From NCBI RefSeq assembly GCF_030384885.1, contig NZ_CP128613.1: a stretch of DNA of 64,000 bases; one strand, written 5' to 3'. Positions 11,794 through 19,276 of the stretch are shown one piece after another. Both the position numbers and the translations under genes were made by a program. Below the pieces are notes generated by a model that saw only the letters and a list, made by a program, of their open reading frames with translations, searched no databases and had not been told where the DNA came from. The DNA is from Escherichia coli (GTDB lineage Bacteria; Pseudomonadota; Gammaproteobacteria; Enterobacterales; Enterobacteriaceae). Position 1 is the stretch's first letter, and each line of letters opens with the position of its first letter.

Positions 11794-11883
11794 GGAGAGA
11801 TGCCGGAGCGGCTGAACGGACCGGTCTCGAAAACCGGAGTAGGGGCAACTCTACCGGGGGTTCAAATCCCCCTCTCTCCGCCA
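11794..11883 (+). tRNA. serU: tRNA-Ser
   Basis: 90 nt GGAGAGATGCCGGAGCGGCTGAACGGACCGGTCTCGAAAACCGG...CTCTCCGCCA, long variable arm typical of tRNA-Ser. Confidence 0.9.
11870..11883. repeat. attL core: serU 3' end (CCCTCTCTCCGCCA)
   Basis: 14 bp identical to the copy at 34279-34292. Confidence 0.6.
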
Positions 11884-14831: not shown

Positions 14832-16682
14832 GTGGAACTTATGATGGATTTTTTATATCAGGAATTAGCAAAAGCAGGGATAGCACTTTCTGTCAAAGAG
14901 CTTTTCACTCGCGTGGTATCTGCATGGGATAAAAAAAATTTAAGTGGGAAGCAACTTGTTAGAGAGTTGACTGGTTCAGAGGTATATCTGAACTATCTTG
15001 AGAAACATGTAGCAAGAGTGGTCCGACTAAGAACGATCCATAGTGCTGATTATGATATTCTGCTGACTAATTTATATCATCCATTAGGTATCACATCTTT
15101 ATCTCCCGGTGCAACTGAACATAAAGTCAATGACGGCTTCTATATAGAAAATCAACATATTACTAATATCATAGGAATAGCAGGGCAAGGGAAAAGTACT
15201 ATTTTAAGAAAACTGTTCATAGAACAAATAAAGAATGGAACAAAAATACCATTTTTTATTGAATTACGTAGAACTGGAAATGATGGGATCATTAAATCTC
15301 TTGAAAATACATTAATCAATCTTGGATTATACCCGACGTCCCAAGCAATTGATGAATTGTTATTTAGTAATAAAATATCTTTAATGTTAGATGGATTTGA
15401 TGAGGTCAACTCAAAGCAAAAAGATATTTTACTAAGTGAGATATTGATGCTAAACGTAAAATATGCATTGCAAGTAATAGTTACGTCGAGACCGGGTACA
15501 ACTGTTTGCAATGAACCATCAATTGTTAATTATAAAGTCGAAAAACTTAAAGAAAAAGACATACTGGCAATTATAGAAAAACTCAATACTAACAATGGAG
15601 TTATAGACAAAGAACAATTGCCGAAAATAAAAGATACAATTAAAAATAACAAAAATCTTGTTTCTGTGATGACTTCACCTATTCTGGTAACGCTTTTTCA
15701 TGTCTGTTATCCATTCATGGATATTATCCCCAATAATACAGTAGAATTTTATTCAAATCTGTTTATGACATTATATCTTCGACATGACAAAGTTAAAAAC
15801 TTTGACCGCGAAAAATCTTCCTCTTTAAGTCATAATGAAGCATATGACTGTTTCTGTACATTATGTTTTTACTCAATTTATACGAATAATCATGAATTTA
15901 CAGAGCAGTCACTAAATGAATATACAGAAAAATCAATGAAGTTAAAGGGACGGTTTGGTGAATGCAAAGCGGAGTCATTAGCTCAGGATTTTATTAATGT
16001 AACTTGTTTAATTCAGCGAGAAGGCTTTAATAAATATATCTTTATTCATAAATCGATTCAAGAGTATCATGCAGCAGAATTTATAAAAAATATATCATCA
16101 GATCAGAAAAATAAATTTTATAGTTTTCTTGTTGAAGATATTAAAAAAAATGAATTACGATTTTCTAATGTTATAGTATTCCTTAAAGAAATAGATGTCA
16201 TAGATTGTGCTAAATTCTTAATTATTCCACTGTGCGAATATTTTGGCGTTTCAAAATGGAATGCTTTGACCCCATTGGAATACAAGGATTTATTACGTAC
16301 ATTTTTCTCCGATACCTACATTCATTTATTTAATGACATTAATGATAAAGATATAATGGGGTTCAGTTCATTATCAGGGGTTAGTGGCTGGATGCAATTA
16401 TTAGATATCAGCGGCAATAATGATTTATATACGCCTGTGTTTGAAGTGTTAATAGATGAATCATTGTCAAGTGCGAATTTTAAAGATGTTGTAACCAGTC
16501 AAGATCGGCAAATGGTAAAAGTTTCATTTATGAAGGCAATAATACAATTAGGGATTGAAGACAAAATAGTTGAAGTGTTTATCAAAAATATTAAGAAAAT
16601 ACATAACGAAGTATATTGTGAAGCCATTAATAAAGTAAATAACGAGGATGTTAGTATTAAGGAGTTCTTTGATCTGATTTAA
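14832..16682 (+). CDS. NACHT-family STAND NTPase (bacterial NLR-like), short form
   Basis: Walker A GIAGQGKST, Walker B LMLDGFDEV, sensor-1 VIVTSRP; about 115 aa N-terminal and about 300 aa C-terminal regions unassigned. Confidence 0.7.
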   Translation: MELMMDFLYQELAKAGIALSVKELFTRVVSAWDKKNLSGKQLVRELTGSEVYLNYLEKHVARVVRLRTIHSADYDILLTNLYHPLGITSLSPGATEHKVNDGFYIENQHITNIIGIAGQGKSTILRKLFIEQIKNGTKIPFFIELRRTGNDGIIKSLENTLINLGLYPTSQAIDELLFSNKISLMLDGFDEVNSKQKDILLSEILMLNVKYALQVIVTSRPGTTVCNEPSIVNYKVEKLKEKDILAIIEKLNTNNGVIDKEQLPKIKDTIKNNKNLVSVMTSPILVTLFHVCYPFMDIIPNNTVEFYSNLFMTLYLRHDKVKNFDREKSSSLSHNEAYDCFCTLCFYSIYTNNHEFTEQSLNEYTEKSMKLKGRFGECKAESLAQDFINVTCLIQREGFNKYIFIHKSIQEYHAAEFIKNISSDQKNKFYSFLVEDIKKNELRFSNVIVFLKEIDVIDCAKFLIIPLCEYFGVSKWNALTPLEYKDLLRTFFSDTYIHLFNDINDKDIMGFSSLSGVSGWMQLLDISGNNDLYTPVFEVLIDESLSSANFKDVVTSQDRQMVKVSFMKAIIQLGIEDKIVEVFIKNIKKIHNEVYCEAINKVNNEDVSIKEFFDLI

Positions 16683-16893: not shown

Positions 16894-17298
16894 TTAGATG
16901 GCAAAGTCTTCCAGTGTCTTACCAGCTTCGATAGCAGCAGCGATTGCTTTAGGAGTACGGCCCTGACCCGTCCAAGTCTGCTCATTACCGTTTTCATCTG
17001 TATATTTGTATTTAGCAGGACGAGGAGCACGAGTTGATTTGGTTTTAGGCTGGGATGAACCAACTGAAGCGAGTAGTTCTGTAGGATCGATACCGTCTTC
17101 TAATAATTTCTGGCGGAAGGCTTCAAGTTTAGCCTGACGTTCTTCTTGTTCTTTACGGGCTGAATTTTCTTCCTCACGGCGATCTTCAACGATTGTGGTG
17201 AGTTTTTCCAGCATCTCTTCCAGAGTTGCCAGATCTGTTTCACGAGCCTGTGCGCGAAGTGTACGAATATTGTTCAGTGCCTTAAGAGCTTCACTCAT
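16894..17298 (-). CDS. hfp: H-NS family nucleoid-associated protein (Hfp/H-NS paralogue)
   Basis: C-terminal DNA-binding motif [10 protein letters not shown] and H-NS-like coiled-coil N-terminus; 134 aa. Confidence 0.8.
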
Positions 17299-17454
17299 AG
17301 TATGTCATCCGGTGTTTTAAAATGGGCGATTAATAAAAATAATGCTTACGGTGCTGTTGGAAAAGTCAAAAAAACAGTCAGTAAATAATATAGTAAACAT
17401 TATCGTTTAAGCAATCTAATACATCTCATTTCACACGAATAGCATAGGGTCGTT

Positions 17455-17934
17455 TTACAGAGATATTTTCCTGCGCTTGTGGCTTGATGGTTCAAACTCT
17501 GACGAGATACGAGATAGTTGCTCAAGACTCTGTTCAATTGAACGCTGGAACTCCATAGCGGCTTCTGTACGCTGTTTTATGACCAAGGCAACTATTTCTT
17601 CATCAGTCTTTTCTGAAATAGCCTTACGGTATAACACGCGTTCGTTAAATAAATCGAGATTACCAGTTGATCTCGCTGATGTGTTAGCTTTTGAACTGCT
17701 GATAGGATTTAACTCGTCAATAAAGTATTCAATAAGAGATCCTCTCTTTTTTTCAAGTCTGCGAAGTTCGGTATGTGCAGACTTAAATTTTTGAGCCTTA
17801 ACCAATGGAATGTCATCGGAACGCAGTTTGCGATATTCATTTCTGTATTCTTCTATAGAAATATGATTTTTTAGTTCTTTGACTGTATTTACGTATTCGA
17901 TTAAATCACTGTTGTCTGTTTTTACTTTTCTCAT
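17455..17934 (-). CDS. Hypothetical coiled-coil protein
   Basis: 159 aa ORF upstream of hfp on the same strand. Confidence 0.4.
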   Translation of the reverse strand: MRKVKTDNSDLIEYVNTVKELKNHISIEEYRNEYRKLRSDDIPLVKAQKFKSAHTELRRLEKKRGSLIEYFIDELNPISSSKANTSARSTGNLDLFNERVLYRKAISEKTDEEIVALVIKQRTEAAMEFQRSIEQSLEQLSRISSEFEPSSHKRRKISL

Positions 17935-17997
17935 AAGAATACCTCGTTAATAAATGATGGATATATTTATATTACGAGATATGGTGTTAGTGTCAAA

Positions 17998-18045
17998 TTA
18001 GCTCTTTAGCTCTTTAGCTCTTTAGCTCTTTAGCTCTTTAGCTCT
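17998..18045. repeat. Perfect octanucleotide tandem repeat (TTAGCTCT)x6
   Basis: Six exact copies counted directly, 64-111 bp upstream of the 17934 start codon. Confidence 0.95.
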
Positions 18046-18126
18046 GTTTCTCTCTTGGTAAGAAAATCCCTTTAGTGTAATAGGAGGTTATTACGGAGAT
18101 ATTTTTGCCTGTTTTTCCGCTGGTAA

Positions 18127-18684
18127 TTAATTTTTGTTATTCACTGTTTTCTTTTTGTCCTTCAAGTAATAAGTTTTCATGAAAGTTAAACGATCACCAT
18201 TAAACATATAGTCTGGATTAATAAAATAATAGTTCTGTATCATGGTCTCAGCAATAAATTTCTTGTCAGCAAGTTCTTTCATCCCTTTGAAATATGTCGT
18301 TCTTGATATTTTTACAATCTCTTGATCAACAATATCGAATGACATTAATATCGTATCTGTATCTTTATTGTCTCTAATAGCAAGATACAGTATCTTAAAT
18401 ACTTTCTTACCTGATGAGGATAAACCCTCAATAGCTGATACGCCATCCACATAAAGCTTCACGAACTGTGTCTTGTCTACTTCCATTGACTGAAAGAAAC
18501 CACCATGCCCAACCTGTTCTCCTGTATTTTCATTTACTACGGCTAAGCGGTCTTTTCCTGTTGTGATACGTCTGATACCTGTTTTTGTATGTATATTTGT
18601 ATCATTAAGGAATGGGTTTTTTACATGGCGAGGTAGACCTCTTCTTGATTTCTTTACTTCCGTTTGTATCTTATTTTCTATCAT
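18127..18684 (-). CDS. Hypothetical protein
   Basis: 185 aa ORF, basic N-terminus; no motif recognised. Confidence 0.4.
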   Translation of the reverse strand: MIENKIQTEVKKSRRGLPRHVKNPFLNDTNIHTKTGIRRITTGKDRLAVVNENTGEQVGHGGFFQSMEVDKTQFVKLYVDGVSAIEGLSSSGKKVFKILYLAIRDNKDTDTILMSFDIVDQEIVKISRTTYFKGMKELADKKFIAETMIQNYYFINPDYMFNGDRLTFMKTYYLKDKKKTVNNKN

Positions 18685-19096
18685 GGTACTTACTCCTTTA
18701 TTTTTTTAGTTATACATTTAAGTAAATACTATATTTTGCGTGCAAGTCAATACTTAAAGTTTATATTTTTTAAAATAACTAACACTTGATGTTTTTACGT
18801 ATAAAACTTGTAGTGCTACAGAATATATACAAATAACACTTTATTATTTTTATTTGAGAATAGTTATCAACTTAAGTACCGGGATTCGGGACTTTAACTC
18901 CCGAGAGTGCGTACTTTGTTTTAAGCTATAGCTGGCTTGAGAGCAGTTTTCTTCTTCATTATTCAAATAGCGAAGCTTTGGATGACATTTTAAAGAATAT
19001 AATATTGGAAATAGTTCTTCTTTTTAGTTGATTGGTGCCTTATCAAAATGGCACCAGTGGTGTTATCTGTGTTATTTTTCCTACTATGTTATTACA

Positions 19097-19276
19097 GCGA
19101 AGTGATTGTTGTATACAATCACGAACCGCTGCTACTATCGGGACTGCTTGATTAATTTTACTTTAACTTTATATGCGTCTACGACGCGATCTTTTTTGGA
19201 TAAATCCAATATTAACAGGGGCAAGCCCTGTTCAGCAGAGTGATTGTTCGCAACAATCACGAAGTGCTGCTATCAA
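19097..19276. promoter_or_regulatory. Pair of related ~40 bp elements, each containing a 21 bp palindrome (GTGATTGTTnnnAACAATCAC), with intervening hairpins
   Basis: Palindromes at 19102-19122 and 19240-19260 followed by the conserved tail GAA(C/G)(C/T)GCTGCTA; hairpin plus T-run 19171-19195; hairpin 19216-19230. Confidence 0.5.

What the first reader, a model, noticed from the sequence alone, without database searches (positions are those of the whole stretch)
17998..18045. Perfect octanucleotide microsatellite (TTAGCTCT)x6 in the promoter region upstream of the hfp-containing transcription unit
Six exact tandem copies lie 64-111 bp upstream of the start codon of the gene preceding the H-NS paralogue. 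E. coli chromosomes rarely contain perfect SSRs of this length. In other bacteria such tracts cause phase variation by slipped-strand mispairing that changes promoter geometry. Copy-number change here could switch expression of an H-NS-family silencer and so toggle the island's defence genes.
Basis: seen in the sequence. Interest (0 to 1): 0.55.

Follow-up and report, generated by a model that had tools for sequence, protein, structure and literature searches.

The report
Hypervariable 8-bp repeat beside a promoter
A perfect six-copy 8-base repeat on an E. coli genomic island changes copy number (0 to at least 8) between almost identical strains, but it sits next to the promoter of an unknown-function gene and not the H-NS-like gene hfp, and nothing yet shows that it switches any gene on or off.

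Summary
(TTAGCTCT)x6 lies at 17998-18045, is perfect, and is the only such array in the window. On the coding (minus) strand it reads (AGAGCTAA)x6 and ends one base upstream of a consensus -35 hexamer (TTGACA) of a conserved sigma-70-type promoter for a DUF4756 gene. That gene lies between a repL-like gene and the H-NS paralogue hfp on a serU-inserted EARL/ROD21-type island carrying Thoeris and NACHT genes.

Islands differing from the window by 1-3 SNPs in 16-20 kb carry 3, 5, 6 or 8 copies, and more diverged relatives carry 0, 1, 2, 4, 5 or 6. Every unit is perfect. It is therefore a slippage-driven hypermutable VNTR.

- The tract is outside the -35/-10 spacer.
- The DNA upstream of -35 is unrelated in other island variants that keep the same promoter.
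- In UPEC 536, hfp has its own mapped start site 339 bp upstream of its ATG, and that region is 97% identical here.

A switch of hfp or of the defence genes is conjecture. The most likely reading is a near-neutral or weakly modulating VNTR. A true contingency locus is possible (about 25%).

The parts
17998..18045 (-). Perfect octanucleotide array, (AGAGCTAA)x6 on the minus (coding-sense) strand and (TTAGCTCT)x6 on the plus strand
   Evidence: Copy number is polymorphic in homologous loci.
18046..18053 (-). Degenerate flanking unit AGAGAAAC (5 of 8 positions match the repeat unit). It is present in 0-copy relatives and is probably part of the proto-repeat from which the array grew.
   Evidence: Alignments. 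The repeat finder family D1.
17991..17996 (-). -35 hexamer TTGACA (6/6 consensus) of the DUF4756 gene promoter. The array ends one base upstream of it.
   Evidence: Invariant in all island variants examined, including DUF4756 loci with only 72-95% protein identity.
17969..17974 (-). -10 hexamer TAATAT with a 16-nt spacer
   Evidence: Invariant in all variants. This is a prediction; no transcription start has been mapped.
17942..17945 (-). Shine-Dalgarno GAGG, 7 nt before the ATG of the DUF4756 gene
   Evidence: Read from the sequence.
17455..17934 (-). DUF4756 gene (159 aa, all-helical, function unknown). This is the gene directly downstream of the array and promoter.
   Evidence: Pfam PF15948; PHROG 38784, unknown function; AF2 model; no fold match.
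17633..17634 (-). Position homologous to the mapped major hfp transcription start of UPEC 536 (a T, 339 bp upstream of the ATG in 536; 335 bp here because of a 4-nt deletion in a T-run)
   Evidence: PMC2814080 and the alignment. Inferred by homology, not mapped in this strain.
16894..17298 (-). hfp-type H-NS paralogue (134 aa)
   Evidence: Pfam Histone_HNS.
18127..18684 (-). repL-like gene (185 aa). Its stop codon lies 81 bp upstream of the array, with no predicted terminator in between.
   Evidence: RefSeq name; weak Pfam RepL hit, E 3e-5, 24 bits.

Best explanation
The tract is a hypermutable, slippage-driven octanucleotide VNTR. It grew from a one- or two-unit proto-repeat (AGAGAAAC / ATAGCTAA + AGAGCTAA) immediately upstream of the -35 hexamer of the conserved sigma-70-type promoter of the DUF4756 gene, on a serU-inserted EARL/ROD21-type island.

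Shown: the array is perfect, and its copy number differs (3, 5, 6, 8, and at least 8) among islands that are otherwise nearly identical. It ranges from 0 to 6 in more diverged relatives, always with perfect units. It therefore gains and loses 8-bp units much faster than point substitutions accumulate.

Inferred mechanism of change: slipped-strand mispairing during replication. An 8-nt loop is larger than the roughly 4-nt insertion/deletion loops that MutS-dependent mismatch repair handles well (established knowledge), so such tracts are unstable even in repair-proficient E. coli. The self-complementary AGCT core allows small hairpins that may help.

Inferred consequence: the tract leaves the -35/-10 core untouched. 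From 3 copies upward, the DNA from -37 to -60 is the same array sequence. Length changes therefore only move and rotate the DNA further upstream (the repL 3' region with its phased A-tracts) by 8 bp, or 274 degrees, per unit. The expected effect on DUF4756 transcription is nil to modest and graded, not ON/OFF. hfp is affected only through possible read-through, because it has its own promoter.

The most probable status is a near-neutral or weakly modulating VNTR, useful as a strain marker, and not a proven contingency switch.
For: - Array and its perfection.
- Copy-number alleles in near-identical islands (blastn against the window; counts): GCA_904842275.1, 3 SNPs in 20.5 kb, 5 copies; Logan SRR16760859, 2 SNPs in 17.2 kb, 3 copies; GCA_025828115.1, 1 SNP in 16.3 kb, 8 copies; GCA_029997195.1, 74 SNPs in 20.5 kb, 6 copies; two SUNS21-1 metagenome scaffolds with at least 8 copies and an N-gap in the array; three short-read contigs end inside the array.
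- Diverged relatives: 0 copies (MCJCHV-1, L052); 1 perfect plus 1 imperfect (D7, L034); 2 (EC42405, L035, L037); 4 (L031); 5 (L032); 6 (L033)..
- In lineages whose flanks differ by 8-16%, every unit is still perfect. A static 32-48 nt stretch would stay clean with a probability of only about 0.02-0.27 per lineage. This implies ongoing turnover.
- Promoter: -35 TTGACA, 16 nt, TAATAT, invariant across all variants.
- The sequence directly upstream of -35 is unrelated in at least 4 other island contexts that keep the promoter, so no conserved upstream element is required.
- hfp has its own mapped promoter (PMC2814080).
- Single-stranded DNA mini-hairpins: dG -7.3 kcal/mol, z -1.95.
Against: - The tract sits exactly against a consensus -35 hexamer, which is a position where upstream SSRs are known to modulate promoters (nadA, vlhA, hmw1A). 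This could be more than coincidence.
- The same unit persists at the same site, with 2-6 perfect copies, in island lineages 8-16% diverged. Selection for a mutable tract could explain that as well as a mutational hot spot could.
- No expression data exist for any allele.
- The switching rate per generation and variation within a single culture were not measurable here.
- Copy numbers come from assemblies, mostly short-read. Arrays of 24-64 nt fit within single reads, and a k=31 assembly can only traverse arrays shorter than about 39 nt, which is consistent with what was seen.
Confidence: 0.6

Rival explanations
1. It is a true contingency locus. Reversible slippage of the tract produces subpopulations with different DUF4756 expression, and by read-through different Hfp expression. 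The mechanism would be a change in the spacing and helical phase between the core promoter and upstream elements (curved A-tract DNA, an H-NS nucleation site or an unknown operator in the repL 3' region), as in the nadA-type distal-promoter mechanism.
For: Hypermutability is shown. The tract abuts the -35 hexamer. No terminator is predicted between repL, the array, DUF4756 and hfp. Each unit rotates the upstream DNA by 274 degrees, so alleles differ strongly in phase. Tract purity is maintained across diverged lineages. The precedent is nadA: TAAA repeats upstream of the core promoter, flanked by NadR operators (PMC2791445).
Against: The tract is not in the -35/-10 spacer. DNA upstream of -35 is completely different in other island variants with the same promoter, so no conserved flanking operator is evident. 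Most related islands have 0-2 copies: none of 5,426 complete E. coli genomes has more than 2. hfp has its own promoter and is reported to be monocistronic. No SSR evolved at this position in other DUF4756 loci. No expression data exist.
Confidence: 0.25
2. It is an array of protein-binding sites: iteron-like sites for the neighbouring RepL-like protein, or operators for DUF4756 or Hfp. Copy number would set the amount of bound protein and so act on replication, copy control or autoregulation of the excised island.
For: The array lies 81 bp downstream of a gene that RefSeq names replication/maintenance protein RepL, which has a weak Pfam RepL match. Direct repeats next to rep genes are typical of iteron origins (established knowledge).
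Against: The homologous repL-DUF4756 regions in 343 complete genomes have only 0-2 units, so the sites are not conserved. The unit is 8 bp, not about 17-22 bp, and is not phased with the helix. The octamer occurs nowhere else in the island. The same unit forms arrays in unrelated taxa with no shared genes. Better operator or origin candidates exist upstream of repL, namely two 21-nt palindromes.
Confidence: 0.05
3. The copy-number differences are assembly artefacts, and the tract is stable.
For: Several short-read contigs and scaffolds break in the array, which shows that assemblers have trouble with it.
Against: Four independent assemblies traverse the array with intact unique flanks on both sides and give four different lengths (24, 40, 48 and 64 nt), all shorter than a read. 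Metagenome contigs of diverged variants give further values. The breaks are what de Bruijn assemblers are expected to produce once the array exceeds k.
Confidence: 0.03

Closest known systems
Neisseria meningitidis nadA promoter TAAA tract (Metruccio et al. 2009, PMC2791445)
   Same: It is an SSR upstream of the core promoter and not in the -35/-10 spacer. Length changes alter the spacing of distal promoter elements and give graded expression states.
   Different: nadA has defined NadR operators flanking the tract plus an IHF site. Here no flanking operator is known, and the upstream DNA is not conserved among island variants. The unit is 8 bp against 4 bp. No expression data exist.
Haemophilus influenzae hmw1A/hmw2A 7-bp promoter repeats (PMC8262952) and Mycoplasma gallisepticum vlhA GAA repeats (PMC6258824)
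   Same: These are promoter-region repeats with units longer than 3 bp whose copy number tunes or gates transcription.
   Different: Those tracts are long (often more than 10 copies), are conserved features of their gene families and are experimentally tied to expression. Here most relatives have 0-2 copies and function is untested.
VNTR loci used for MLVA typing of E. coli (own knowledge; no paper holding this repeat was found)
   Same: It is a perfect short tandem repeat that is polymorphic in copy number among closely related strains, generated by slippage, with no demonstrated function.
   Different: It is located on a mobile EARL-type island and directly abuts a consensus -35 hexamer. It has an 8-bp unit. 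It was not found in the searched literature.
Iterons of Rep-dependent plasmid or phage origins
   Same: Direct repeats next to a rep-like gene.
   Different: The repeats are not conserved among homologous islands, the unit length and phasing are wrong, and no dispersed copies exist.

Membership tests
SSR-mediated phase-variable (contingency) locus | Hypermutable tract: repeat number differs among otherwise near-identical genomes | tested here: met
   3, 5, 6 and 8 copies in islands 1-3 SNPs apart over 16-20 kb. At least 8 copies in metagenome scaffolds.
SSR-mediated phase-variable (contingency) locus | Tract placed where a length change alters expression: inside an ORF, or between the -35 and -10 hexamers | tested here: not met
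   All six frames are closed and the tract is intergenic. The tract ends one base upstream of -35, outside the spacer.
SSR-mediated phase-variable (contingency) locus | High, reversible switching rate within a clonal population (about 1e-5 per division or higher) with a phenotypic ON/OFF or graded change | not testable with these tools
   This needs read-level data or culture experiments. Only assemblies were available.
nadA-type distal-promoter SSR | Tract upstream of the core promoter, flanked by regulator operators whose spacing it changes | tested here: inconclusive
   The position upstream of -35 is met. No conserved flanking element was found: the upstream context is unrelated in at least 4 island variants that keep the promoter. 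Within the repL-adjacent variant an operator cannot be excluded.
VNTR (polymorphic tandem repeat, MLVA-type marker) | Head-to-tail identical units with copy-number polymorphism among strains | tested here: met
Iteron origin of a RepL-type replicon | Repeats conserved in homologous replicons next to the rep gene | tested here: not met
   0-2 units in the related repL-DUF4756 regions of complete E. coli genomes.
Iteron origin of a RepL-type replicon | Unit of about 17-22 bp, in phase with the helix, bound by the Rep protein | tested here: not met
   The unit is 8 bp, or 0.76 of a turn. Binding is not testable. The Rep assignment itself is weak (Pfam 24 bits; no NCBIfam HMM hit).
hfp promoter region | Lies within the mapped hfp promoter region (-70 to -412 from the ATG; transcription start at -339 in UPEC 536) | tested here: not met
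   The array is 700-747 bp upstream of the hfp ATG. The mapped region is 97% conserved in the window.

The most novel reading that the evidence does not exclude
E. coli, a species not known for SSR-based phase variation, carries on a mobile EARL-type defence island a genuine octanucleotide contingency tract. By changing the phase and spacing of DNA upstream of the DUF4756 promoter, the tract would stochastically set the level of a DUF4756-Hfp (H-NS paralogue) transcript. It would thereby diversify xenogeneic silencing, island excision or Thoeris/NACHT expression within a clone.
Probability: 0.12. Interest if true: 0.75.

Novelty: new member of a known kind. Interest (0 to 1): 0.4.

Why it matters
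If the tract only marks strains, it is a convenient high-resolution VNTR for tracking this rare serU island variant. It also warns that short-read assemblies break at this point.

If copy number does tune the DUF4756 promoter, and hfp by read-through, it would be a rare case of SSR-based expression heterogeneity in E. coli, located on a mobile island that combines H-NS-family regulators with anti-phage systems. That question is directly testable with simple reporter fusions and amplicon sequencing.

Tried and rejected
1. Iteron or RepL-binding reading: rejected. The repeats are not conserved in homologous islands, the unit size is wrong, and the octamer is absent elsewhere in the island.
2. 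Conserved motif shared with other taxa: rejected. A scan for three copies of the unit found 18 loci in GTDB species representatives and 3 in IMG/VR, but none shares flanks or genes with the window, so these arrays are coincidental.
3. Known RNA family over the region: none.
4. Literature: no paper contains two consecutive units of the repeat. The single-unit search returned only primer noise.
5. Function of DUF4756: no NCBIfam or PADLOC hit, and the PHROG family has unknown function. There is no PDB sequence relative. The single-sequence AF2 model is all-helical (pLDDT 77) and has no significant Foldseek match in the PDB. This line led nowhere.
6. Convergent SSRs at the same promoter position in distant DUF4756 loci: none found.
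7. The window's own genome in the complete-genome set: the core flank is 100% identical to strain 2013C-4282, but that genome lacks this island. No complete E. coli genome has the array variant.
8. Coding or frameshift role: rejected, because all six frames are closed.

Full report
**Observation**

The window contains TTAGCTCT repeated exactly six times at 17998-18045 (TRF score 96, 100% matches). A regex scan for perfect arrays of period 4-12 with at least 4 copies finds only this one in 64 kb, and none in a 49 kb chromosomal stretch of another E. coli. The chance expectation is about 1e-19. The octamer occurs nowhere else in the window. The observation and its coordinates are confirmed, including the stated distance of 64-111 bp from the ATG (17934) of the next gene on the minus strand.

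**Context**

The core flanks are E. coli. The fli genes are 100% identical to strain 2013C-4282, although that genome lacks this island. The low-GC segment starts at tRNA-Ser(CGA), serU (11794-11883), and runs to about 34.9 kb.

The island carries the following genes:
- DUF6387 and AlpA genes
- an 80-aa truncated H-NS (H-NST type)
- a NACHT protein
- the H-NS paralogue hfp (16894-17298, minus strand)
- a DUF4756 gene (17455-17934, minus strand)
- a repL-like gene (18127-18684, minus strand)
- Thoeris ThsA/ThsB (PADLOC 672 and 285 bits)
- a MobA/MobL relaxase
- an integrase

This matches the serU island described for UPEC 536 and CFT073 and the EARL/ROD21-like island family, in which DUF4756 and hfp are neighbours (PMC2814080; PMC10763509).

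**Anatomy**

All three neighbouring genes are on the minus strand, where the array reads (AGAGCTAA)x6. All six frames through it are closed by TAA or TAG, so it is non-coding.

One base downstream of the array lies TTGACA (17996-17991), followed by a 16-nt spacer, TAATAT (17974-17969), a GAGG Shine-Dalgarno (17945-17942) and the ATG (sequence). The string TTTGACAC-N5-CCATATCTCGTAATATAAATATATC is invariant in every island variant examined. Some DUF4756 loci of only 72-95% protein identity keep the hexamers and most of the string. The promoter is therefore very probably real, though it has not been mapped. No terminator is predicted between repL and the array, or between DUF4756 and hfp. No Rfam family matches.

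**Copy-number comparison**

Exact-protein look-ups retrieved independent assemblies of essentially the same island. Copy counts are and blastn comparisons with the window.

| Assembly | Difference from the window | Copies |
|---|---|---|
| GCA_904842275.1 | 3 SNPs in 20.5 kb | 5 |
| Logan SRR16760859 | 2 SNPs in 17.2 kb | 3 |
| GCA_025828115.1 | 1 SNP in 16.3 kb | 8 |
| GCA_029997195.1 | 74 SNPs in 20.5 kb | 6 |

Two metagenome scaffolds carry at least 8 copies followed by an N-gap. Three short-read contigs end inside the array.

More diverged homologous loci give these counts:
- 0 copies: MCJCHV-1 type, which reads AGAGAAAC-ATCACCAA at this position
- 1 perfect plus 1 imperfect: D7
- 2: complete genome EC42405, L035 and L037
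- 4: L031
- 5: L032
- 6: L033

Among 5,426 complete E. coli genomes, 630 hold a related repL-DUF4756 region. In none of them does the alignment extend more than about two units into the array.

In lineages whose flanks differ by 8-16%, every unit is still perfect, which a static 32-48 nt sequence would rarely be. The tract therefore gains and loses units far faster than substitutions accumulate, and it is a hypermutable VNTR. Assembly artefact is an unlikely explanation, because four assemblies traverse the array with intact unique flanks and give four different lengths, all shorter than a read.

**How it changes (inferred)**

The likely mechanism is slipped-strand mispairing. Loops of 8 nt are poorly recognised by MutS-dependent repair (established knowledge), so instability does not need a mutator background. 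The AGCT core allows 4-bp mini-hairpins in single-stranded DNA (dG -7.3 kcal/mol, z -1.95). The flanking degenerate unit AGAGAAAC and the 1-2 unit alleles show the proto-repeat from which the array expanded.

**What it can and cannot do**

- The tract is not in the -35/-10 spacer, so the classical change in promoter geometry does not apply.
- From three copies upward, the -37 to -60 zone is the same array sequence. Further length changes only displace the DNA further upstream by 8 bp (0.76 turn, 274 degrees) per unit.
- That further-upstream DNA does not appear to be required by the promoter. In the 536-type islands, and in at least three other contexts, homology stops exactly at the -35 hexamer and unrelated DNA lies upstream. 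None of those contexts has evolved a repeat there.
- A nadA-like mechanism, with operators flanking the tract (PMC2791445), therefore has no visible support. It cannot be excluded for the repL-adjacent variant.

**Link to hfp**

In UPEC 536 the main hfp transcription start is a T located 339 bp upstream of the ATG. A second start is predicted at -87. Reporter fusions placed the promoters within -70 to -412, and the authors concluded that hfp is monocistronic and repressed by H-NS (PMC2814080). This region is 97% identical in the window, and the start maps to about 17633-17634, inside the DUF4756 ORF. The array is 700-747 bp upstream of the hfp ATG, so it is not in the hfp promoter. Only read-through from the DUF4756 promoter could connect the two. 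Nothing links Hfp level to the Thoeris or NACHT genes.

**The gene directly concerned**

DUF4756 remains of unknown function:
- no NCBIfam or PADLOC hit
- a PHROG family of unknown function
- no PDB relative by sequence
- an all-helical AF2 model with no significant fold match

**Rivals**

- The iteron or binding-site reading is rejected. The repeats are not conserved in homologous islands, the unit is 8 bp and out of phase with the helix, and there are no dispersed copies. The same unit forms arrays in unrelated taxa with no shared genes. Two 21-nt palindromes upstream of repL are better operator or origin candidates.
- A genuine contingency locus remains possible (about 25%). The tract is hypermutable, abuts a consensus -35 hexamer and has kept its purity across diverged lineages.

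**Comparison and novelty**

Mechanistically the closest known cases are upstream-of-promoter SSRs: nadA TAAA, hmw1A 7-mers and vlhA GAA. By what has actually been shown, it is a VNTR of the kind used for MLVA typing. No paper in the searched library contains the repeat. I file it as a new member of a known kind.

**Verdict**

The regulatory interpretation is only partly supported, and the specific link to hfp and the defence genes is not supported. Interest is 0.4. A perfect, demonstrably unstable octanucleotide tract against a -35 hexamer is unusual for E. coli and easy to test, but current evidence favours a near-neutral or weakly modulating repeat.

Noticed in passing
window 19095-19134 and 19233-19272: There are two copies of a 40-nt element (80% identical, 138 bp apart) in the 920-bp intergenic region upstream of the repL-like gene. 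Each is centred on a 21-nt palindrome (GTGATTGTTGTATACAATCAC / GTGATTGTTCGCAACAATCAC). They are candidate operator, origin or oriT sites.
   Followed up: no
window 17996/17997 boundary; loci L047-L057, L059-L066: Homology between island variants stops exactly at the -35 hexamer of the DUF4756 promoter. At least four unrelated sequences, including an inserted opposite-strand gene in UPEC 536, lie directly upstream. The site of the array therefore coincides with a module junction of EARL-type islands.
   Followed up: partly
L026 562-649 (Erwinia sp. JUb26), L024 (Akkermansiaceae UBA2381), L019/L020 (Flammeovirgaceae MAG): The same octamer unit AGAGCTAA forms perfect arrays of 11, 8 and 6-7 or more copies in unrelated genomes, with no shared flanks or genes. 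In the Flammeovirgaceae MAG two contigs end in the array.
   Followed up: partly
window 17444-17469 and 18080-18105: A 26-nt direct repeat (77% identical) lies just after the stop codon of the repL-like gene and overlaps the stop codon of the DUF4756 gene. A related CGTAATAAC-like motif also occurs at 19088-19100, next to the palindromes. It may be a shared regulatory or 3'-end element.
   Followed up: no
L058 1018-1500 (E. coli EC42405, complete genome): In this strain the DUF4756 gene is annotated as a pseudogene with an internal stop, hfp is not annotated next to it, and the array allele has 2 copies.
   Followed up: no
window 14832-16682; loci L038-L046: The NACHT gene product is called at 612, 613 or 616 aa in assemblies that differ from the window by only 1-3 SNPs and no indels outside the array. 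The start codon call is probably ambiguous (GTG start in the window).
   Followed up: no
window 21641-23705: A complete type I Thoeris pair is present: ThsA (SIR2-STALD, 478 aa, PADLOC 672 bits) and ThsB (TIR, 203 aa, 285 bits). It lies on the same serU island as H-NST, Hfp and a NACHT protein, and other variants of the island carry different TIR/ThsA_Macro cargo at the same place.
   Followed up: partly
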